In this document: positions 6,029-64,000 of the stretch, one piece after another
Layout of the letters: each line of letters begins with the position of its first letter
Position numbering within the stretch: position 1 is the first letter of the stretch
From: Naegleria gruberi
Taxonomy: Eukaryota
DNA length: 64,000 nt
Assembly (NCBI GenBank): GCA_000004985.1
Contig: GG738902.1
Strand: one strand, 5' to 3'
Program-made: the position numbers and the translations under genes
The notes under the pieces: generated by a model
Databases searched by the model: none
Seen by the model: only the letters and a program-made list of their open reading frames with translations
What the model was told of the DNA's origin: nothing

Positions 6029-7348
6029 ATGACTGAACAACAAACAGTGTTAATTGATGATCTTCAATTAATTTCAAATCAATTTCCATGTGGTGATATT
6101 CTTTGGGAAATTTTATCATTTTGTAATGATTTTACATTTATTGTAATGAATTGTGCACTAGTTTCCAAACAGTGGTACCATGTCATTTTGGAAAGATGTA
6201 AACTCTCATTAACCTGCAATTCGGATCAGAAATTGAAGGGAAAATTTCTTGAAAGAGTTTCAAATTTCACAGTTAAAAAGAATGAAGAAGGAAATTTGTT
6301 TAATTGTCAAATTTTTGAATGTTTGAAGAATTTGACAAGAATTGATATCAGTGATAATGAAATTAGCGATGAAAGGGTTAAGCATTTTGGTAATTTGACT
6401 CATTTGACAAATCTTGTAATTAATTGTAACGACATTGGTGTAGAGGGAGCTAAATGTCTTTGTCAACTGAATCAATTAACAAGGCTTAATATTGGAAACA
6501 ACAGTCTTGAGACTGAAGGTGCTAAATACATTAGTGAACTGAAGAATTTGACCAAACTTGATATCGCTCGCAACTGTATTGGTGATAGAGGTGCTCAATT
6601 TATTACTGAAATGAAACAACTGACTTCTCTAAACCTTAACAGGAATGGAATTGAATATTTAGGAGCAAAATTTATTAGTGAAATGTATCAATTAACGAGT
6701 CTTGATATCAGTAACAATGACATTGGTTCTGAAGGAGCTAAACAAATTAGCAAACTCGACCAATTGACCAAACTATATATTTACGATAATAATATTGGTG
6801 ATGAAGGAGCTATGCACATTAGCGAAATGAAACAACTAACTAATCTCGATATTAGCAGGAATGATATTGACTCAGAAGGTGCCAAATCCATATGTGAACT
6901 CTATCAATTAACAAATCTCAATATTTGTTCGAATTACATTGGTGAAACAGGTGCCAAGCATATCAGTGAAATGAATAATTTGACCATTCTTGAAATTGGC
7001 AGTAATGAAATTGGATCTGAAGGAGCGTATCATATCAGCAGAATGCACCAATTGACTAGGCTCATGATTTTTGCTAATGATATTGGAGAAAAAGGGGCCA
7101 AACATGTTTCTGAGATGAAACAATTAACTAAACTCGATATTTATGATAATAATATTGGTGATGAGGGAACTATACACATTAGCGAAATGAAACAATTAAC
7201 CTACCTCGATGTTTCAGCCAATAATATTGGTCACGAAGGTGCTGAATATATTAGGAAATTGAATCGATTGACATTTCTTAATGTTCACTATAATTCATTC
7301 AGTGATAGTGAATCAGAACTTATAGAAAAGGAGTTAATGAAGGATTAA
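6029..7348 (+). CDS. F-box / RNI-like leucine-rich-repeat protein (about 13 repeats of 24 aa).
   Basis: The N-terminus is F-box-like (DILWEILSFCNDFTFIVMNCALVSKQWYHVI). It is followed by regular repeats of the form L(T)xLxIxxNxIGxEGAKxISEMKQ. Confidence 0.75.
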   Translation: MTEQQTVLIDDLQLISNQFPCGDILWEILSFCNDFTFIVMNCALVSKQWYHVILERCKLSLTCNSDQKLKGKFLERVSNFTVKKNEEGNLFNCQIFECLKNLTRIDISDNEISDERVKHFGNLTHLTNLVINCNDIGVEGAKCLCQLNQLTRLNIGNNSLETEGAKYISELKNLTKLDIARNCIGDRGAQFITEMKQLTSLNLNRNGIEYLGAKFISEMYQLTSLDISNNDIGSEGAKQISKLDQLTKLYIYDNNIGDEGAMHISEMKQLTNLDISRNDIDSEGAKSICELYQLTNLNICSNYIGETGAKHISEMNNLTILEIGSNEIGSEGAYHISRMHQLTRLMIFANDIGEKGAKHVSEMKQLTKLDIYDNNIGDEGTIHISEMKQLTYLDVSANNIGHEGAEYIRKLNRLTFLNVHYNSFSDSESELIEKELMKD

Positions 7349-8647: not shown

Positions 8648-9065
8648 TGATATAGTCATTCACATGTGGACATGAAATTTAATAAAAATTCAAGAAAACA
8701 ATCTTTTTCTCAATGTTGGAATACATGAAAATTAAGAACTTGTAAGTCCCAATTAATGTAAATTCCTTGTCTGATTTGGCGAGATATGTTACAATGGAAA
8801 AATTCATTAAAATTCATCTGCGTCTCACTTTACTGGTCAGAACTTCTCCCGCCAAATCGTAAACGAGTAACCAATCATAACTGTTACGCTTGAAAAATTT
8901 ACTTTAGAAAAAAAAAACTCAATTCTCTCCCCTCTACACTCTTTCAGTTGTTGTTGCAACAAATTTTTATCGTAGTGAGGGTTTTTATATATTTTGTATA
9001 GTTCATCATCCAAATCCAAATCATCATCAACCACCTTACTTACTATATTATTTATTAAATCGAGA

Positions 9066-12000
9066 ATGGGTTGCGGAAATTCAAAATCAACACTCGGTGT
9101 AGTTGAGACCGTCGAAGAAAAACCAAAACAACAAGCCACTGTCAATAACACCACTAATACTACCACTGCTGTCATGACAGGAACACTTGAACCAGAGGCA
9201 CCAAAGAAGAAGGATGGTTTCTGTTACTTCTTTGGTCTTGACAGTCAAACTAAGGAAAACCTCACTGAAGGGAATAAGGATATGAAGGAACTACTTGGAG
9301 GAAAAGGTGCTAACTTGTGCGAAATGTGCAATTTAGGTATTAATGTTCCTCCTGGATTTACTGTTTCTACAGAAGCCTGTGAACACTTTAGCCAGCTTCA
9401 TAACCTTGCTACTTCAGCAGGAGAAGAAGGAGCTGAAAAAAAGAATCTCACTTTACCAGAAAACATTCAAACACAAGTCGACGAATATCTCAAAAAATTG
9501 GAACAAGCAACTGGAAAGAAATTTACCGATTCATATGAAAATGATACAGATAAGGTTCTCTTAATTTCTGTGAGATCAGGAGCTGCCATTTCAATGCCTG
9601 GAATGATGGACACTATTCTTAACCTTGGTATTTGTGACAAGAATATTACTCAACTCGTTAAAAACTTTGGTGGAAATGAAAAATTCGCTTGGGATTCATA
9701 TCGTAGTCTCGTTCAAATGTTCGGTGAAGTTGTCATGTCAGTCAAGCCAGAACATTTCGAAGACAATATCAAAAAGCAAAAGGAAAAGAGAGGTATTACT
9801 CATGATTCTGAATTGAATTTGGAAGAAATTCAACAAATCGTTCAAGATCACAAACTTACTATTTTCGAACAAACTGGAGGTGAAGACTTCCCACAAGATG
9901 TTCGTCAACAATTGTACAGAGCTATTATTGCTGTCTTTAACTCATGGCACAATAAGCGTGCTGTGCAATATAGAAAGATTCACAACATTACTGGTCTTAA
10001 GGGAACTGCTGTAAATATTCAATCCATGGTCTTTGGTAATGTTGATGAACGTTCATGTTCTGGTGTCTGTTTCAGTAGAAATCCTTCAACAGGTGAAAAT
10101 CTATTCTATGGTGAATATATGATTCAAGCACAAGGTGAAGCTATTGTTGCTGGTCAAAGAACTCCAGAAAAGATTGAAACCTTGGCTACTAACTTCCCAG
10201 AATGTAACACTAGTTTGAAGGAAATCAGTACCAAATTGGAAAAGCACTTTAAGGATGTCCAAGATATGGAATTCACAATTGAACAAAATACTCTCTATAT
10301 GTTGCAATGCAGAAATGGTAAAAAGACAATTCAAGCTTCTCTCAAGATTTACTGTGACATGATAGATGAAGGTCTTATCAATGAAAGAGAAGCCATCTCA
10401 AAGATTGATGCTACTCAACTCAACCAAATGCTCCATCCATTCTTGGATGATTCTGAAAAGGCTCATCACGAACCTTTGGCAACTGGTTTACCAGCAAGTC
10501 CTGGTGCTGTAGTTGGTAGAATTGCTTTCACCAGTGAACAAGCCATTAAAATGTCTGAAACCAGAAAGGAAGATGGTGATGTCATCTTGGTCAGAGAACA
10601 AACAAGCACTGAAGATTTGGCTGGTATGCATGCTTCTCAAGGTTTCTTGACTACTAATGGTGGTCTTACTTCTCATGCTGCTGTTGTTTCTCGTCAACAA
10701 GGTAAATGCTGTGTAAGTGGATGTAGCTTGCTTTATGTCACTAGTGAAGAATCTTGTACAATTAATGGAACCCTCTTTAATCAAGGTGATATTATTACTA
10801 TTGATGGTTCAACTGGTAATGTCTACGGTAAGGCTCTCAAGACAACTAGACCAGGTATTTCTCAACCTGACTTTGTCAGAATTATGGATATTGAAAAGAA
10901 GTACAGAACTATGAGTGTCTATGCTAACGCTGATACATCTGTCGATGCTCATAAGGCTGTTGAATTCGGTGCTGAAGGTATTGGATTGTGTAGAACTGAG
11001 CACATGTTCTTTGAAAAGACAAGAATAGTTGACATGAGAAGAATGATTGTTGCCTCCACCACAGAAAAGAGACAAGAAGCTATTAATGTTCTCAAAGATT
11101 ATCAACGTTCTGATTTCCTTTCCCTCTTCCATGCTATGGAAGGAAAGAAGGTCACTATTAGATTGTTAGATCCTCCACTTCACGAATTTTTACCAGAAGA
11201 TCCACAAGAAATTGAAGAATTGGCTTTGGCTCTTGGTGAATCTGTTAAGGATGTTACCCTTACTGTCTCTCAACTCAAGGAAAAGAATCCAATGTTGGGT
11301 CATCGTGGTTGTAGATTGGGTATTACCTTCCCCGAGATTACTCAAATGCAAGTTGAAGCCATTTTTGAAGCTGCTATTGATGCTACTCATAAGGGCGAAG
11401 TTGTTGTTGATATTATGGTTCCATTAGTTCAATCTGTTCAAGAACTTGTCAACCAAAAGGAAATTATTGAAAAAGTTGCTTCATCATTGTTTGCCAAGCA
11501 TGAAGACAGAAAATATCTCATTCATTACAGAGTTGGTTGTATGATTGAAACTCCAAGAGCTGTTTTGATGGCTAAAGAACTTGCTGGTGTTGCTGATTTC
11601 TTCAGTATTGGAAGTAATGACTTGACTCAAATGACCTTTGGTTTCAGTAGAGACGACAGTGGTAAATTCCTTAAATATTATCTCGAACGTGACTTGATTG
11701 AAAATGATCCATTCGAAGTTTTGGATACAGAAGGTGTTGGAAAGATTATTCAACTCACTGTCCAAACTGGTAGAGAAGCAAAGAATGGTTTGACTGTTGG
11801 TTTGTGCGGTGAACATGGTGGTGAATCTCACTCTGTTAAATTCTTGTACCAATGCGGTCTTTCATATGTCAGTTGTTCACCTTATAGAATTCCAATCGCT
11901 AGACTTTCTGCTGCTCAAGAATCTGTCAAGAATTGGAGAAATGTTATTTGTGTTAATGGTGGTCCAGGATCAGGAAAGGGCACACAATGTGCCAAACTTG

Positions 12001-12491
12001 TTGAAAAGTATGGTTTTATCCATTATAGTACAGGTGATTTGTTGAGAGCTGAAGCTGCTAAGGATACAGAACAGGGTAGAATGATCTCGTCATACATTAA
12101 GGAAGGTAAGATTGTGCCTGGTGCTGTTACTCTTGGTTTGTTAAGAAATGCTATTTTGAACCATCCTAAAAAGGATGCTACGTTCTTGATCGATGGCTTC
12201 CCAAGAGAAATGCAACAAGCTGTTGACTTTGAAGCTCATGTCTGTAAATTCAAGTTTGTCCTCTTCTTTGATTGTCCAGAAGAAATTTTGGAACAAAGAT
12301 TGTTAGAAAGAGGTAAGACGAGTGGTAGATCTGATGACAATGCCGAAAGTATTAAGAAGAGATTCAAGACCTATAGCGACCAAACAATGCCAGTTATTGG
12401 ATACTTTAAGAAGACTGATAGAGTCAAGACAATTGATAGTTCAAAGACACAAGAAGAAGTGTTTGCTGAAGTATGCAAATTATTTGATTAA
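9066..12491 (+). CDS. Pyruvate phosphate dikinase (PPDK) fused in frame to a C-terminal adenylate / UMP-CMP (NMP) kinase domain. The N-terminus carries the acylation-type motif MGCGNSKS.
   Basis: The ORF is uninterrupted (1165 aa from 8994; 1142 aa from the in-frame ATG at 9066). PPDK hallmarks: GGKGANLCEM, TGGLTSHAAVVSRQQGKCCVSGC (phospho-His domain), GLCRTEHMFF, FFSIGSNDLTQMTFGFSRDD, GLCGEHGG and the PPDK C-terminus CSPYRIPIARLSAAQ. Without any stop it continues into ICVNGGPGSGKGTQC (P-loop) ... LIDGFPRE ... FVLFFDCPEE ... RGKTSGRSDDN ... KKRFKTY, a complete short-type NMP kinase from about nt 11926 to 12491. Confidence 0.85.
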   Translation: MGCGNSKSTLGVVETVEEKPKQQATVNNTTNTTTAVMTGTLEPEAPKKKDGFCYFFGLDSQTKENLTEGNKDMKELLGGKGANLCEMCNLGINVPPGFTVSTEACEHFSQLHNLATSAGEEGAEKKNLTLPENIQTQVDEYLKKLEQATGKKFTDSYENDTDKVLLISVRSGAAISMPGMMDTILNLGICDKNITQLVKNFGGNEKFAWDSYRSLVQMFGEVVMSVKPEHFEDNIKKQKEKRGITHDSELNLEEIQQIVQDHKLTIFEQTGGEDFPQDVRQQLYRAIIAVFNSWHNKRAVQYRKIHNITGLKGTAVNIQSMVFGNVDERSCSGVCFSRNPSTGENLFYGEYMIQAQGEAIVAGQRTPEKIETLATNFPECNTSLKEISTKLEKHFKDVQDMEFTIEQNTLYMLQCRNGKKTIQASLKIYCDMIDEGLINEREAISKIDATQLNQMLHPFLDDSEKAHHEPLATGLPASPGAVVGRIAFTSEQAIKMSETRKEDGDVILVREQTSTEDLAGMHASQGFLTTNGGLTSHAAVVSRQQGKCCVSGCSLLYVTSEESCTINGTLFNQGDIITIDGSTGNVYGKALKTTRPGISQPDFVRIMDIEKKYRTMSVYANADTSVDAHKAVEFGAEGIGLCRTEHMFFEKTRIVDMRRMIVASTTEKRQEAINVLKDYQRSDFLSLFHAMEGKKVTIRLLDPPLHEFLPEDPQEIEELALALGESVKDVTLTVSQLKEKNPMLGHRGCRLGITFPEITQMQVEAIFEAAIDATHKGEVVVDIMVPLVQSVQELVNQKEIIEKVASSLFAKHEDRKYLIHYRVGCMIETPRAVLMAKELAGVADFFSIGSNDLTQMTFGFSRDDSGKFLKYYLERDLIENDPFEVLDTEGVGKIIQLTVQTGREAKNGLTVGLCGEHGGESHSVKFLYQCGLSYVSCSPYRIPIARLSAAQESVKNWRNVICVNGGPGSGKGTQCAKLVEKYGFIHYSTGDLLRAEAAKDTEQGRMISSYIKEGKIVPGAVTLGLLRNAILNHPKKDATFLIDGFPREMQQAVDFEAHVCKFKFVLFFDCPEEILEQRLLERGKTSGRSDDNAESIKKRFKTYSDQTMPVIGYFKKTDRVKTIDSSKTQEEVFAEVCKLFD

Positions 12492-12514: not shown

Positions 12515-13390
12515 CTAATTTCCATACGTCTCTGCAAACTTTTGAAGTAAATATTGGTAAGCTGTTTTGTTAACAGATTCAATAAAAAACTCCTTGTCTG
12601 GTTGTCCAAAGAATGCAATACTATACCTATCTGATTCATAATTAGACAGGACAACTTGATGAGGAACACTCTTATATTCTTGATCAGTCCATTCTTGCAT
12701 CAAATCTCCACAATTTACAATAATGGCATCTTTAACACAAGGTGCATCAATCATTTCATTAGTGATTCGGTCCAAAACTTTCAAACCACCTGTACTATCC
12801 TGACATAACAATGTTATTGAACCATAGTCAGAGTGAATTCCACATCCATTACTAAATTTTGGAGCACTTGAATCAAGTTTAGGATAATGTAAATATCTCA
12901 AACTATGTTCCATTTCAGAGTGAGCCAGAGCAAAATCATCCGTTTGTTTACTCAATCCTCTCTGTAAATCACCCAATAATTCAATCAATAGACCATGCAA
13001 TTCCAAGAATAGTTTCTTTGAAAATTCCTCAAATCCCTTAACAGAACCATGTTCATCTTCATTAGGAAAATAAACTTTTCCATAATCTACATCCGACTTG
13101 GACATTCGAACATTGTAAGCCTCCTTCAGATCAATGTCCTTTCCATTTAATTTCTCACTATTCGTACTAATGTAACCACTTTCTCCCTTCACTGTATGAA
13201 GTTCTTGTTTCACTTGTTTCGGCAATTCAAAAAACAGTTTTGAAAATTCAAAAGCTTGATCAATTAATGGAATTAATGGATGATCAACAAGATAGAAAAA
13301 TCCGATACTGTTCAGGGCATGTTTAATTTCGTCCAATCTCGTGTCGCTGTTGTATGAAATGATGGGAATTAAAGTTTCGTTTGGTTTCAT
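12515..13390 (-). CDS. 2-oxoglutarate/Fe(II)-dependent dioxygenase family protein.
   Basis: H-x-D...H facial triad (GIHSDYGSITLL; SVPHQVV) and the RxS 2OG-binding motif (DRYSIAFF). The ORF-track start at 13432 is GTG; the first ATG, in an A-rich context, is at 13388-13390. The 3' end lies 23 bp from the PPDK stop (convergent). Confidence 0.7.
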   Translation of the reverse strand: MKPNETLIPIISYNSDTRLDEIKHALNSIGFFYLVDHPLIPLIDQAFEFSKLFFELPKQVKQELHTVKGESGYISTNSEKLNGKDIDLKEAYNVRMSKSDVDYGKVYFPNEDEHGSVKGFEEFSKKLFLELHGLLIELLGDLQRGLSKQTDDFALAHSEMEHSLRYLHYPKLDSSAPKFSNGCGIHSDYGSITLLCQDSTGGLKVLDRITNEMIDAPCVKDAIIVNCGDLMQEWTDQEYKSVPHQVVLSNYESDRYSIAFFGQPDKEFFIESVNKTAYQYLLQKFAETYGN

Positions 13391-13676
13391 TTTTTTGAGT
13401 TTCGTAAGGTAGGTACTTTCCCAAGTCCACACATAACTTGGTTAAAATTCACAGATTTCTTCAATAAATCTTTATTAGAAAGTTCCTTTCCTCAACATTT
13501 TCATCCAATTATTGAAGGGAAGATTTGGCGCCAAAAAATTTCCGGATATTGTAAACTGGTTCTGCTGGTTGCAAAGCATTTTTCCAGCAAAACAAAAGTT
13601 TGTGTTTTCTACCAACTGACAAACCTATTTAAGACGAAACCAATTCGAAACACCACTAAACAAAAACAACAAAAAA

Positions 13677-62068: not shown

Positions 62069-62212
62069 GGGTTTGGGTTTGGGTTTGGGTTTGGGTTTGG
62101 GTTTGGGTTTGGGTTTGGGTTTGGGTTTGGGTTTGGGTTTGGGTTTGGGTTGGGTTTGGGTTTGGGTTTGGGTTTGGGTTTGGGTTTGGGTTGGGTTTGG
62201 GTTTGGGTTTGG
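62069..62212 (+). repeat. Interstitial (TTTGGG)n telomere-repeat array (about 24 units), running into an N gap.
   Basis: Perfect gggttt hexamers with occasional gggtt variants; the G-rich strand is on the + strand. Confidence 0.9.
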
Positions 62213-63316: not shown

Positions 63317-63630
63317 AGTTGAATAGTAAACATCCTGAAATGATACCAAAGTATTTGAAATTGATATATATTGTTATTAACATGATTTAAAAGGTGATAT
63401 ATTGATTTGAAATGATTTTGAAATGTTTTCATTGATATTCTAATTGTCTAATCTATTATATGAAATTAACTTATATAAGTCATTATAATGATGTAATATT
63501 ATGTTATATTATGATTATATATTCAATTTGGAGTATATTGATATATAATATATTGATTTATAATGAGTATTTATTGAGATAATTAATTAAGAAGAATAAA
63601 AGTCAAAAGGTTGGGTCTGACCTTAGTCGT

Positions 63631-64000
63631 GGGTTTTGGTTTGGGTTTGGGTTTGGGTTTGGGTTTGGGTTTGGGTTGGGTTTGGGTTTGGGTTTGGGTT
63701 TGGGTTTGGGTTTGGGTTTGGGTTTGGGTTTGGGTTTGGGTTTGGGTTTGGGTTTGGGTTTGGGTTTGGGTTTGGGTTTGGGTTTGGGTTTGGGTTTGGG
63801 TGTTTGGGTTTGGGTTTGGGTTTGGGTTTGGGTTTGGGTTTGGGTTTGGGTTTGGGTTTGGGTTGGGTTTGGGTTTGGGTTTGGGTTTGGGTTTGGGTTT
63901 GGGTTTGGGTTTGGGTTTGGGTTTGGGTTTGGGTTTGGGTTTGGGTTTGGGTTTGGGTTTGGGTTTGGGTCCGGGTTTGGGTTTGGGTTTGGGTTTGGGT
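63631..64000 (+). repeat. Terminal telomere array (TTTGGG)n, about 60 units, with the G-rich strand running 5'->3' toward the window end. Variants: GGGTT (one T missing) several times, GGGTGTTTGGG near 63800, and GGGTCCGGGTTT near 63968.
   Basis: Uninterrupted hexamer array to the last base of the window, so this is the right-hand chromosome or contig end. Confidence 0.9.

What the first reader, a model, noticed from the sequence alone, without database searches (positions are those of the whole stretch)
9066..12491. In-frame fusion of pyruvate phosphate dikinase with an adenylate/UMP-CMP-type NMP kinase, plus an N-terminal MGCGNS dual-acylation-like motif
A single uninterrupted ORF encodes a complete PPDK (all three domains, ending at the usual C-terminus ...CSPYRIPIARLSAAQ) and then, after about 12 linker residues, a complete short-type NMP kinase (GGPGSGKGTQC P-loop, LIDGFPR, RGKTSGRSDDN LID). 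In the glycolytic direction PPDK consumes AMP + PPi, and adenylate kinase regenerates AMP from 2 ADP. This is the classical PPDK/AK coupling that yields 2 ATP per PEP in PPi-dependent glycolysis. A physical fusion of the two would be a tidy metabolic module; I do not recognise it as a standard architecture.

If translation starts at the Kozak-like ATG at 9066, the protein also begins MGCGNSKS (Gly2, Cys3, Ser6), the consensus for N-myristoylation plus palmitoylation. That would imply a membrane-anchored PPDK, possibly flagellar or plasma-membrane. The window start is near the upstream end of this locus, so the true 5' end of the locus should be checked.
Basis: partly seen in the sequence, partly recalled or inferred. 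Interest (0 to 1): 0.75.

Follow-up and report, generated by a model that had tools for sequence, protein, structure and literature searches.

The report
Lipid-anchored PPDK fused to nucleotide kinase
The amoeba Naegleria gruberi has one gene that joins a complete pyruvate phosphate dikinase to a complete small nucleotide kinase behind a conserved lipid-anchor signal; the fusion is real, appears confined to Naegleria, and its proposed role as a membrane-bound ATP-recycling unit is untested.

Summary
Window 9066-12491 (+) is one uninterrupted 1141-codon ORF, identical to GenBank EFC39103.1 / XP_002671847.1, "pyruvate phosphate dikinase [Naegleria gruberi]". It encodes, in order:
- the N-terminus MGCGNSKST;
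- a variable leader of about 40 residues;
- a PPDK with all checked catalytic residues;
- an 8-residue junction;
- a short-LID NMP kinase with all checked catalytic residues.

N. fowleri and N. lovaniensis carry the same architecture, with the junction inside a single exon. Both domains are under equally strong purifying selection (dN/dS about 0.035), and the first nine residues are invariant. I found no other PPDK-kinase fusion in the searches I ran.

- The kinase belongs to the UMP-CMP kinase family and is closest to yeast URA6, not AK1. URA6 does phosphorylate AMP. The fused copy has the Thr/Ser and Gln found at two NMP-site positions in AK1, and each Naegleria species keeps a separate Ala-type paralogue.
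- The junction is 8 residues, not 12.

A by-product: the N. fowleri RefSeq model lacks the kinase P-loop only because a 21-nt microexon was skipped.

Best reading, mostly inferred: a dual-acylated, membrane-tethered module that converts PEP + PPi + 2 ADP into pyruvate + 2 ATP + Pi.

The parts
9066..12491 (+). Complete coding sequence of the fusion protein (1141 aa plus TAA stop). Intronless in N. gruberi. Equals GenBank EFC39103.1 / XP_002671847.1 / UniProt D2VVU5.
8976..8978 (+). Nearest in-frame upstream stop (TGA). No ATG in any frame lies between it and 9066.
9066..9092 (+). N-terminal MGCGNSKST: Gly2, Cys3, Ser6, Lys7. Candidate N-myristoylation plus S-palmitoylation signal.
   Evidence: Matches PROSITE-type pattern MG-{EDRKHPFYW}-x2-[STAGCN]-{P}. 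Nine residues are identical in N. gruberi, N. fowleri and N. lovaniensis, with dN = 0 and dS 0.4-0.8.
9093..9215 (+). Variable, low-complexity leader (residues 10-50). Absent from the unfused PPDK paralogues and from prokaryotic PPDKs.
   Evidence: Alignment. For the partition used (residues 10-52), about 21% identity between N. gruberi and N. fowleri/N. lovaniensis, and dN/dS 0.16 to above 0.5.
9216..11918 (+). PPDK moiety (residues 51-951): PPDK_N 9288-10178, PEP-utilizers (swivelling His domain) 10578-10817, PEP-utilizers_C 10878-11921.
   Evidence: Pfam. TIGR01828 scores 1151 bits against a cut-off of 843. Full-length alignment to C. symbiosum PPDK, E about 1e-272.
10674..10676 (+). Catalytic histidine (His537 in GGLTSHAAVV), equivalent to His455 of C. 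symbiosum PPDK.
11805..11807 (+). Cys914 in VGLCGEHGG, equivalent to Cys831 of C. symbiosum PPDK.
11919..11942 (+). Junction ESVKNWRN (residues 952-959). Occupies the position of the normal PPDK C-terminal tail, so no extra linker was added.
   Evidence: In N. fowleri the junction lies inside one exon (ORF L001 6873-9002).
11943..12488 (+). Short-LID NMP kinase domain (residues 960-1141), UMP-CMP kinase family, URA6-like.
   Evidence: Pfam ADK 1.7e-48. TIGR01359 scores 228 bits against a cut-off of 207.6. Best solved relative is yeast uridylate kinase 1UKY at 2.6e-62. Tree.
11958..11984 (+). P-loop GGPGSGKGT.
   Evidence: Conserved in N. lovaniensis. In N. fowleri it is encoded by a skipped 21-nt microexon.
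12030..12032 (+). Thr989 in YSTGDLLR, the NMP-site position equivalent to AK1 Thr39. It is Thr in N. fowleri, Ser in N. lovaniensis, and Ala in 111 of 125 kinase domains of the 120 closest homologues.
12216..12218 (+). Gln1051 in DGFPREMQQ, the position equivalent to AK1 Gln101. Gln in AK1 and URA6, Asn in Dictyostelium and human UMP-CMP kinases.
12309..12341 (+). Short LID segment RGKTSGRSDDN with the catalytic arginines and aspartates.

Best explanation
This is a bifunctional enzyme conserved across three Naegleria species.

**Shown**
- One polypeptide carries a conserved myristoylation/palmitoylation-type N-terminus and a flexible, fast-evolving leader.
- It also carries a PPDK with all checked catalytic residues and, 8 residues after the PPDK core, an NMP kinase of the URA6-like UMP-CMP kinase family with all checked catalytic residues.
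- Both catalytic moieties are under equally strong purifying selection.
- Each Naegleria species also keeps an unfused PPDK and an unfused Ala-type UMP-CMP kinase. The fused pair is therefore an extra, specialised copy.

**Inferred**
- The N-terminal Gly2/Cys3 lipid anchor tethers the protein to a membrane.
- The kinase domain works mainly as an adenylate kinase (2 ADP <-> ATP + AMP). [quoted passage not shown]
- The net glycolytic reaction is PEP + PPi + 2 ADP -> pyruvate + 2 ATP + Pi.
- The fusion probably does not channel AMP. The kinase hangs on the C-terminal PEP/pyruvate domain, far from the N-terminal nucleotide site.
- Its likely benefit is 1:1 stoichiometry and co-delivery of both activities to one place by a single anchor.
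For: **The fusion is real and conserved**
- Single ORF and domain order.
- Identical GenBank model, with orthologues in N. fowleri (74% identity) and N. lovaniensis showing the same architecture.
- The junction lies inside one exon in the intron-containing orthologues.

**Both halves look active and constrained**
- Between N. fowleri and N. lovaniensis, dN/dS is 0.034 for PPDK and 0.037 for the kinase.
- PPDK residues His455, Cys831, Arg561, Arg617, Glu745, Asn768 and Asp769 (C. symbiosum numbering) are conserved.
- The kinase P-loop, LID arginines and DGFPR motif are conserved.

**Lipid-anchor signal**
- The start codon is secure and the motif matches the myristoylation pattern.
- The first nine residues are invariant while the leader diverges.

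**Adenylate kinase reading**
- The closest solved relative, URA6, phosphorylates AMP as well as UMP and CMP (PMC13397275; PMC9018071).
- The fused copies have Thr/Ser at the AK1 Thr39 position. 111 of 125 related domains have Ala there, as do the stand-alone Naegleria paralogues.
- They have Gln at the AK1 Gln101 position.
- A separate Ala-type UMP-CMP kinase exists in all three species.

**Metabolic context**
- Naegleria uses a PPi-dependent, AMP-sensitive phosphofructokinase (cited in PMC7729029).
- PPDK plus adenylate kinase is an accepted adenine-nucleotide-balancing pair inside kinetoplastid glycosomes (PMC4106842; PMC9512073).
Against: - By profile and by tree the kinase is a UMP-CMP kinase, not an AK. 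It scores 228 bits on TIGR01359 and 209 on TIGR01360 (cut-off 284). It is 46% identical to AK1 and 56.5% to URA6.
- Its shift toward AK1 relative to the Ala-type paralogues is small: a score difference of 19-20 bits against 26-32.
- The role of the Thr39-equivalent residue in AMP versus UMP/CMP discrimination is recalled from memory. I could not confirm it in the held literature.
- I obtained no transcript, proteomic, lipidation, localisation or enzymatic data.
- The direction of PPDK flux in Naegleria is unknown. N. gruberi prefers lipids (PMC6205838 title; PMC7729029), which would favour a gluconeogenic role.
- The kinase is tethered to the PPDK domain farthest from the AMP site, so proximity alone gives little kinetic advantage.
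Confidence: 0.45

Rival explanations
1. The kinase domain is a true UMP/CMP kinase and there is no AMP coupling. The fusion places pyrimidine-nucleotide recycling (UMP/CMP -> UDP/CDP) next to a PPi-consuming ATP source at a membrane. One example would be re-phosphorylating UMP or CMP released by glycosyl- and phospholipid-transfer reactions. Alternatively, the fusion only co-regulates two enzymes.
For: - Family assignment: passes TIGR01359 and fails TIGR01360.
- The best PDB hits are uridylate and UMP-CMP kinases.
- The domain nests within a heterolobosean UMP-CMP kinase clade.
- UniRef names the N. lovaniensis fusion 'UMP-CMP kinase'.
Against: - Every Naegleria species examined keeps a separate stand-alone Ala-type UMP-CMP kinase, so the housekeeping function is already covered.
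- The fused copy specifically carries Thr/Ser at the AK1 Thr39 position, a minority state in the family.
- There is no stoichiometric link between the PPDK reaction and UMP/CMP phosphorylation other than ATP.
- URA6-type enzymes accept AMP anyway.
Confidence: 0.25
2. The architecture and adenylate kinase activity are the same, but flux runs gluconeogenically. PPDK makes PEP from pyruvate during growth on lipids or amino acids. The kinase pulls the reaction by removing AMP (AMP + ATP -> 2 ADP).
For: - N. gruberi prefers lipids over glucose (PMC6205838; summarised in PMC7729029).
- PPDK is reversible and is thought to act gluconeogenically in plants (PMC12965863).
- An unfused PPDK paralogue exists that could serve the other direction.
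Against: - Nothing in the sequence indicates direction.
- Naegleria has PPi-dependent PFK, which is typical of PPi-based glycolysis.
- A membrane anchor has no obvious use for bulk gluconeogenesis.
Confidence: 0.15
3. The fusion is an artefact: an assembly or gene-model error, or two genes that are expressed separately.
For: No cDNA evidence was available to me. The only contig carrying the exact protein is the genome scaffold.
Against: - Three independent genome assemblies show the same continuous reading frame across the junction.
- No Met lies between the PPDK core and the P-loop, so a separate kinase cannot be initiated there.
- Both halves show strong purifying selection.
- The four intron positions are shared by N. 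fowleri and N. lovaniensis, and none is at the junction.
Confidence: 0.03

Closest known systems
Canonical stand-alone PPDK (Clostridium symbiosum 1KBL/1DIK; Trypanosoma brucei glycosomal 2X0S; the unfused N. gruberi paralogue EFC45580.1)
   Same: Three-domain order is the same. All checked catalytic residues are conserved. The alignment is full length at E about 1e-272. The fused PPDK is 66% identical to the unfused N. gruberi paralogue.
   Different: The fusion has a leader of about 50 residues with an acylation motif and a C-terminal NMP kinase. There is no PTS1: the C-terminus is ...KLFD, whereas the kinetoplastid enzyme is targeted to glycosomes by PTS1.
Yeast URA6, a bifunctional uridylate/adenylate kinase (PDB 1UKY/1UKZ)
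   Same: It is the best solved relative of the kinase domain (2.6e-62, about 56-63% identity). It shares the short LID and has Gln at the AK1 Gln101 position. URA6 phosphorylates AMP, CMP and UMP.
   Different: URA6 is a free 204-aa protein with Ala in SAGDLLR. The fused domain has Thr (Ser in N. lovaniensis) and is covalently attached to PPDK.
Vertebrate AK1 (PDB 1Z83, 3ADK)
   Same: Short-type fold. It shares the STGDLLR and PRE(V/M)QQ motifs at the NMP site.
   Different: Only 46% identical. The fused domain fails the AK1 equivalog model, at 209 bits against a cut-off of 284.
Glycosomal PPDK plus glycosomal adenylate kinase of kinetoplastids
   Same: Both lineages belong to Discoba (from established knowledge). 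The same two activities are confined together to balance ATP/ADP/AMP (PMC4106842; PMC9512073).
   Different: In kinetoplastids these are two separate proteins, each imported by its own PTS1 into a peroxisome-derived organelle. Here they form one polypeptide with an N-terminal lipid-anchor motif.
Dual-acylated (MGC...) flagellar-membrane and lipid-raft proteins of trypanosomatids, such as calflagins and FCaBP
   Same: N-terminal Gly2 plus a nearby Cys. This is the type of signal treated in the literature found (for example PMC5617996, PMC10939215).
   Different: Those are small calcium-binding proteins. No lipidation or localisation data exist for the Naegleria enzyme, so this is a resemblance only.
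Multi-domain eukaryotic ADK-family fusions (tandem ADK repeats, ADK + NDK + Dpy-30, ADK + guanylate kinase)
   Same: They show that the same UMP-CMP/AK1-like kinase module is often recruited into fusions.
   Different: None of those examined contains PPDK domains.

Membership tests
Pyruvate, phosphate dikinase (TIGR01828; EC 2.7.9.1) | Whole-protein match to the equivalog profile above its curated cut-off | tested here: met
   1151 bits against a cut-off of 843.45, covering profile positions 7-863 of 865.
Pyruvate, phosphate dikinase (TIGR01828; EC 2.7.9.1) | Three domains in order: ATP-grasp nucleotide domain, swivelling phospho-His domain, PEP/pyruvate TIM barrel | tested here: met
   PPDK_N 75-371, PEP-utilizers 505-584, PEP-utilizers_C 605-952.
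Pyruvate, phosphate dikinase (TIGR01828; EC 2.7.9.1) | Catalytic His455, Cys831 and the PEP-site residues Arg561, Arg617, Glu745, Asn768, Asp769 (C. symbiosum numbering) | tested here: met
   All are aligned and identical in the phmmer alignment to C. symbiosum PPDK (positions).
Pyruvate, phosphate dikinase (TIGR01828; EC 2.7.9.1) | [quoted passage not shown] | not testable with these tools
   Needs an assay of the recombinant protein.
UMP-CMP kinase family (TIGR01359) | Profile match above the curated cut-off, and better than to the AK1 model | tested here: met
   228.1 bits (cut-off 207.6) against 209.2 on TIGR01360. The same holds for the N. lovaniensis fused domain, 232.9 against 213.1.
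UMP-CMP kinase family (TIGR01359) | Groups with UMP-CMP kinases rather than AK1 in a tree or by identity | tested here: met
   The NJ tree places it in a Naegleria/Willaertia clade (77% bootstrap) among UMP-CMP kinases. Identity is 56.5% to URA6 and 45.8% to AK1. The tree was rooted on a single AK1 sequence, so this test is limited.
UMP-CMP kinase family (TIGR01359) | Ala at the NMP-site position in S-A-G-D/E-L-L-R, the majority state of the family | tested here: not met
   Thr in N. gruberi and N. fowleri, Ser in N. lovaniensis. Ala occurs in 111 of 125 domains of the 120 closest homologues.
UMP-CMP kinase family (TIGR01359) | Preference for UMP/CMP over AMP as phosphate acceptor | not testable with these tools
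   Needs kinetics. The closest characterised relative, URA6, accepts all three.
Adenylate kinase isoenzyme 1 type (TIGR01360) | Profile match above the curated cut-off | tested here: not met
   209.2 bits against a cut-off of 284.1. Human AK1 scores 321 on the same model.
Adenylate kinase isoenzyme 1 type (TIGR01360) | AMP-site residues Thr39 and Gln101 (AK1 numbering) | tested here: met
   YSTGDLLR and PREMQQ align with AK1 LSTGDLLR and PREVQQ. The functional meaning of Thr39 is recalled from memory, not verified.
N-myristoylated and S-palmitoylated (dual-acylated) proteins | Initiator Met followed by Gly2, a permissive residue at 3, Ser/Thr/small at 6, not Pro at 7, and Cys near Gly2 | tested here: met
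   MGCGNSK matches the pattern in all three species. The start codon is supported by the absence of upstream ATGs and by nearby in-frame stops.
N-myristoylated and S-palmitoylated (dual-acylated) proteins | The motif is conserved beyond the neighbouring sequence | tested here: met
   The first 9 residues are identical with dN = 0. Residues 10-52 are about 21% identical between N. gruberi and N. fowleri/N. lovaniensis.
N-myristoylated and S-palmitoylated (dual-acylated) proteins | Actual lipid attachment and membrane association | not testable with these tools
   Needs metabolic labelling and fractionation.
Flagellar adenylate kinases with Dpy-30/RIIa-type docking domains | Presence of a Dpy-30 or RIIa docking domain | tested here: not met
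   No such Pfam hit in the fusion. The 244-aa stand-alone paralogues have only sub-threshold hits to Tex55/DUF5586 in their N-terminal extension.
Glycosomal/peroxisomal PPDK (kinetoplastid type) | C-terminal PTS1 tripeptide | tested here: not met
   The C-terminus is ...CKLFD. PTS1-bearing PPDK is described for kinetoplastids and diplonemids in PMC9512073.

The most novel reading that the evidence does not exclude
Naegleria, including the brain pathogen N. fowleri, carries a lipid-anchored, self-contained ATP-regenerating machine on the plasma or flagellar membrane. A URA6-derived kinase has been retuned into an adenylate kinase and welded to PPDK. Local ADP and PPi would then be converted, at the expense of PEP, into two ATP per turnover at the site of consumption. 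Kinetoplastids achieve a comparable pairing by importing both enzymes into glycosomes. The enzyme pair has no human counterpart.
Probability: 0.2. Interest if true: 0.65.

Novelty: new variant of a known kind. Interest (0 to 1): 0.5.

Why it matters
- Natural fusions of two enzymes are strong hints of functional coupling. This one would be direct genetic evidence for the long-assumed PPDK/adenylate kinase partnership in PPi-dependent energy metabolism.
- It suggests that part of this metabolism is membrane-localised in Naegleria.
- It is a clean case of a pyrimidine-nucleotide kinase paralogue apparently being retuned at the NMP site.
- Practically, it corrects the N. fowleri RefSeq model, which lacks the kinase P-loop.
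- It points to a parasite-specific bifunctional enzyme, since humans have no PPDK.
- The limits are clear. Both component enzymes are textbook, the gene is already deposited (annotated simply as PPDK), and every functional claim beyond the architecture is still inference.

Tried and rejected
1. **Is the N. fowleri kinase domain dead?** The annotated protein reads VVFVLG|TQCAKL without a P-loop. Rejected. The DNA holds a phase-compatible 21-nt microexon (L001 9075-9095, GAGGTCCTGGTTCAGGAAAAG) flanked by AG and GT that restores GGPGSGKG. The N. lovaniensis model uses the homologous microexon.
2. **Is the fusion's leader homologous to the MGSSCSSTKS leader of the stand-alone Willaertia kinase?** That would imply PPDK was inserted into an acylated kinase gene. 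Not supported: local alignment z-scores against shuffles are -0.1, 2.8 and 1.1.
3. **Is the Willaertia 215-aa MGSSC kinase the specific unfused orthologue of the fused domain?** It shares Thr and the K/RKTD motif. The tree does not resolve this (48% support for a different grouping).
4. **Is the N-terminal extension of the 244-aa stand-alone paralogues an RIIa/Dpy-30 docking domain, which would hint at a flagellar role?** Only sub-threshold Pfam hits were found (Tex55, DUF5586). Dpy-30-bearing relatives also occur in red algae, which lack flagella. I did not use this as evidence.
5. **Search for the fusion elsewhere.**
   - The junction probe against 1.84 billion representatives found only the Naegleria cluster spanning the junction.
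   - Nine ambiguous long hits had no PPDK domains.
   - The metagenome contig scan gave only one unrelated 35% hit.
   - Fusions involving distant PPDKs (below about 45% identity) or long-type Adk could have been missed.
6. **Literature.** Five searches found no mention of the fusion. The three most relevant papers are not in the library, so prior description cannot be excluded. They are Opperdoes et al. 2011 (Int J Parasitol), Fritz-Laylin et al. 2010 (Cell) and Fritz-Laylin & Cande 2010 (J Cell Sci).
7. **Structure prediction.** Not run. The combined MAFFT alignment misplaced the kinase homologues onto the PPDK region. The tool also returns no inter-domain geometry.
8. **Citable source for the AK1 Thr39 specificity role.** None found.

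Full report
**1. Is it there?**

Yes. The ORF listing reports one open frame, 8994(TTG)-12491 on the + strand. The first ATG is at 9066, in the context tcgagaATGG, and gives 1141 codons ending in TAA at 12489-12491. No ATG occurs in any frame in the 200 nt upstream, and an in-frame TGA lies 90 nt upstream. There is no stop or frame shift at the domain junction.

Pfam finds PPDK_N (75-371), PEP-utilizers (505-584), PEP-utilizers_C (605-952) and ADK (964-1117). The PPDK equivalog model TIGR01828 scores 1151 bits against a cut-off of 843.

The window is AT-rich at about 33% GC. The translated protein is 100% identical to GenBank EFC39103.1 / XP_002671847.1 / UniProt D2VVU5, "pyruvate phosphate dikinase [Naegleria gruberi]", with the same start. 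The window is therefore N. gruberi nuclear DNA, and the gene model is already public under the name of its larger half.

**2. Is the fusion real or an assembly or annotation accident?**

It is real. N. fowleri (FDP41_010731, 74% identity) and N. lovaniensis (C9374_010379, 1139 aa) carry the same four-domain architecture in independent assemblies.

I reconstructed both orthologous genes on their genomic loci (L001, L005). Each has four GT..AG introns at the same four positions. None is at the PPDK-kinase junction, which lies inside a 2-kb exon. The N. gruberi copy is intronless.

No methionine lies between the PPDK core and the kinase P-loop, so the kinase cannot be initiated separately.

Nei-Gojobori dN/dS between N. 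fowleri and N. lovaniensis is 0.034 for the PPDK part and 0.037 for the kinase part, with dS about 0.8-1.0. Both halves are equally constrained.

**3. A correction that came out of this.**

The N. fowleri RefSeq protein reads VVFVLG|TQCAKL and lacks the P-loop, which would suggest a dead kinase. The DNA contains a 21-nt microexon (L001 9075-9095) flanked by AG and GT. It is phase-compatible and restores VVFVL-GGPGSGKG-TQC. N. lovaniensis has the homologous microexon, with one synonymous difference, and its annotation includes it. The N. fowleri model simply skipped it; the corrected protein is 1142 aa.

**4. Anatomy.**

- **Residues 1-9.** MGCGNSKST is identical in the three species (dN = 0, dS 0.4-0.8).
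- **Leader.** Residues 10-52, the partition used, are only about 21% identical between N. gruberi and the other two species. dN/dS is 0.16 to above 0.5. The leader is absent from the unfused PPDKs of Naegleria and Willaertia and from prokaryotic PPDKs.
- **PPDK core.** It aligns end to end with Clostridium symbiosum PPDK at E about 1e-272. His455, Cys831, Arg561, Arg617, Glu745, Asn768 and Asp769 are all conserved.
- **Junction.** After ...RIPIARLSAAQ come 8 residues, ESVKNWRN. They occupy the position of the ordinary C-terminal tail of unfused PPDKs (QSILSAQKK). The first kinase strand and P-loop, VICVNGGPGSGKG, follow.
- **Kinase.** It has the P-loop, DGFPR, the short LID RGKTSGRSDDN and the KKRF arginine, all aligned with solved enzymes.

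**5. What kind of kinase?**

By family it is a UMP-CMP kinase, not an AK1.

| Sequence | TIGR01359 UMP-CMP kinase (cut-off 207.6) | TIGR01360 AK1 (cut-off 284.1) |
|---|---|---|
| N. gruberi fused domain | 228 | 209 |
| URA6 orthologue (S. arboricola) | 253 | 208 |
| Dictyostelium UMP-CMP kinase | 290 | 187 |
| Human CMPK1 | 278 | 193 |
| Human AK1 | 201 | 321 |

The best solved relatives are yeast uridylate kinase 1UKY (2.6e-62), Dictyostelium and human UMP-CMP kinases, and only then AK1.

In an NJ tree the three fused domains cluster with stand-alone Naegleria and Willaertia kinases (77% bootstrap) inside the UMP-CMP kinase group. Identity is 56.5% to URA6 and 45.8% to AK1.

It does not dispose of adenylate kinase function, for three reasons:

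- **URA6 accepts AMP.** NCBI names fungal URA6 orthologues "bifunctional uridylate/adenylate kinase". URA6 phosphorylates AMP, CMP and UMP efficiently (PMC13397275; PMC9018071).
- **Two NMP-site positions match AK1.**
  - The fused copies read (Y/L)STGDLLR, or SSGDLLR in N. lovaniensis. They read PREMQQ in N. gruberi and N. fowleri, and PREMHQ in N. lovaniensis.
  - Human AK1 reads LSTGDLLR and PREVQQ.
  - Yeast, Dictyostelium and human UMP-CMP kinases, and the stand-alone Naegleria paralogues, have SAGD(E)LLR.
  - Among the kinase domains of the 120 closest homologues, 111 of 125 have Ala there.
  - That this position (AK1 Thr39) discriminates AMP from pyrimidine NMPs is my recollection of mutagenesis work. 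I could not verify it.
- **A separate paralogue exists.** All three Naegleria species also keep a separate Ala-type paralogue: N. gruberi EFC46925.1 (partial), N. fowleri FDP41_004094 and N. lovaniensis C9374_000605. The fused copy is therefore not needed for housekeeping UMP/CMP phosphorylation.

Willaertia magna has an unfused 215-aa kinase with the same Thr and its own MGSSCSSTKS N-terminus. Its ORF is intact, and the annotated 190-aa model removes 25 codons as a false intron.

**6. Distribution and origin.**

- Among the 120 best full-length hits, only the two Naegleria entries combine PPDK and ADK domains.
- A 267-aa junction probe scored against 1.84 billion representatives found only the Naegleria cluster spanning the junction in one stretch. 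The other top hits are tandem-ADK proteins. Nine ambiguous long ones had no PPDK domain.
- A metagenome scan added nothing.
- In a PPDK tree the fused paralogues form a 100% clade. It is sister to a 100% clade of unfused PPDKs that includes Willaertia. Either the PPDK duplication predates the Naegleria/Willaertia split, or the fused copy evolved faster.
- Fusions built on very distant PPDKs or on long-type Adk could have escaped these searches.

**7. How it most likely works.**

Shown: one polypeptide with two selected domains in which every checked catalytic residue is conserved, a secure start codon, and an invariant Gly2/Cys3/Ser6/Lys7 N-terminus that fits the N-myristoylation pattern.

Inferred:

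- The N-terminus is myristoylated and palmitoylated, and it tethers the enzyme to a membrane through the flexible leader.
[quoted passage not shown] The net reaction is PEP + PPi + 2 ADP -> pyruvate + 2 ATP + Pi.
- The pairing has precedent. In kinetoplastids, glycosomal PPDK and glycosomal adenylate kinase are held to balance adenine nucleotides within one compartment (PMC4106842; PMC9512073).
- Naegleria runs a PPi-dependent, AMP-sensitive phosphofructokinase (cited).
- The kinase is attached to the C-terminal PEP/pyruvate domain rather than to the N-terminal nucleotide domain. I therefore expect the gain to be fixed stoichiometry and co-targeting by a single anchor, not substrate channelling.
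- A flagellar location is possible but has no direct support. Glycolytic enzymes were reported as flagellum-associated in differentiating Naegleria, according to the review read.

**8. Rivals.**

- A genuine UMP/CMP kinase with no AMP coupling (0.25).
- The same module working gluconeogenically in a lipid-preferring organism (0.15).
- An artefact or separately expressed genes (0.03).

Details and refutation criteria are in the structured fields.

**9. Novelty and verdict.**

- Both enzymes are textbook and the gene is deposited.
- The domain combination appears restricted to one genus and is under selection. It carries a conserved targeting signal.
- It is not mentioned in any paper I could search.
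- I class it as a new variant of a known kind, of moderate interest. It is a tidy, testable Rosetta-stone fusion whose biochemical meaning still has to be measured.

Noticed in passing
window 63630-64000 and 62069-62212: The window ends in a hexamer array (TGGGTT)n, 61.8 copies at 96% match, that runs to the last base. An interstitial (GGGTTT)24 lies 1.4 kb inside, and GC skew is +0.52 over 62-64 kb. With the G-rich strand running 5'->3' toward the end, this looks like a telomere of T3G3 type. The PPDK fusion gene lies about 51 kb from it. A 2013 survey stated that no information was available on N. gruberi telomeres (PMC3622300).
   Followed up: partly
L001 9075-9095 (N. fowleri VFQX01000007.1) and L005 9020-9040 (N. 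lovaniensis): A conserved 21-nt microexon encodes GPGSGK of the kinase P-loop. It is skipped in the N. fowleri RefSeq/GenBank model (XP_044567465.1 / KAF0982752.1), so the deposited protein wrongly lacks the P-loop.
   Followed up: yes
L004 8001-8648 (Willaertia magna JBEGDK010000149.1): The annotated 190-aa kinase ABK040_005677 is really an uninterrupted 215-aa ORF; the model removes 25 in-frame codons as an intron. It starts MGSSCSSTKS, another myristoylation/palmitoylation-type N-terminus. It shares the Thr-type NMP site with the fused Naegleria domain.
   Followed up: partly
P0136 (Acrasis kona UMP-CMP kinase, 215 aa): This heterolobosean homologue ends in a hydrophobic stretch, FSFTGFFAFAALLAVQIALTRK, that looks like a tail anchor. 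With the acylation-type N-termini in Naegleria and Willaertia, this suggests the kinase lineage is repeatedly attached to membranes by different means.
   Followed up: no
P0123, P0124, P0462 (244-aa stand-alone kinases of Willaertia, N. lovaniensis, N. fowleri): They carry a conserved N-terminal helical extension of about 55 residues (...DPVQFLIDELQRRDP...). It has only sub-threshold similarity to Tex55 and DUF5586, and may be a docking or dimerisation module.
   Followed up: partly
one search hit list (P0008-P0120): After other heteroloboseans, the closest relatives of the Naegleria PPDKs (about 50-54% identity) are PPDKs from DPANN-type archaea (Woesearchaeota, Nanoarchaeota) and candidate-phyla-radiation bacteria, rather than other eukaryotes. 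This may reflect lateral transfer or database composition.
   Followed up: no
window 6029-7348 (+) and 12515-13432 (-): The upstream neighbour is a 439-aa leucine-rich-repeat protein with 7.5 copies of a 72-nt repeat at 6722-7259. The downstream neighbour is a convergent 2OG-Fe(II) oxygenase (DIOX_N + 2OG-FeII_Oxy) that ends 24 nt after the fusion gene's stop. The neighbours are not syntenic with N. fowleri or N. lovaniensis, where SNAP-domain and ELO/Mito_carr genes flank the fusion gene.
   Followed up: partly
window 8837-9175 (-): A 112-aa antisense ORF overlaps the start and leader of the fusion gene. It is probably a chance ORF in low-complexity sequence.
   Followed up: no
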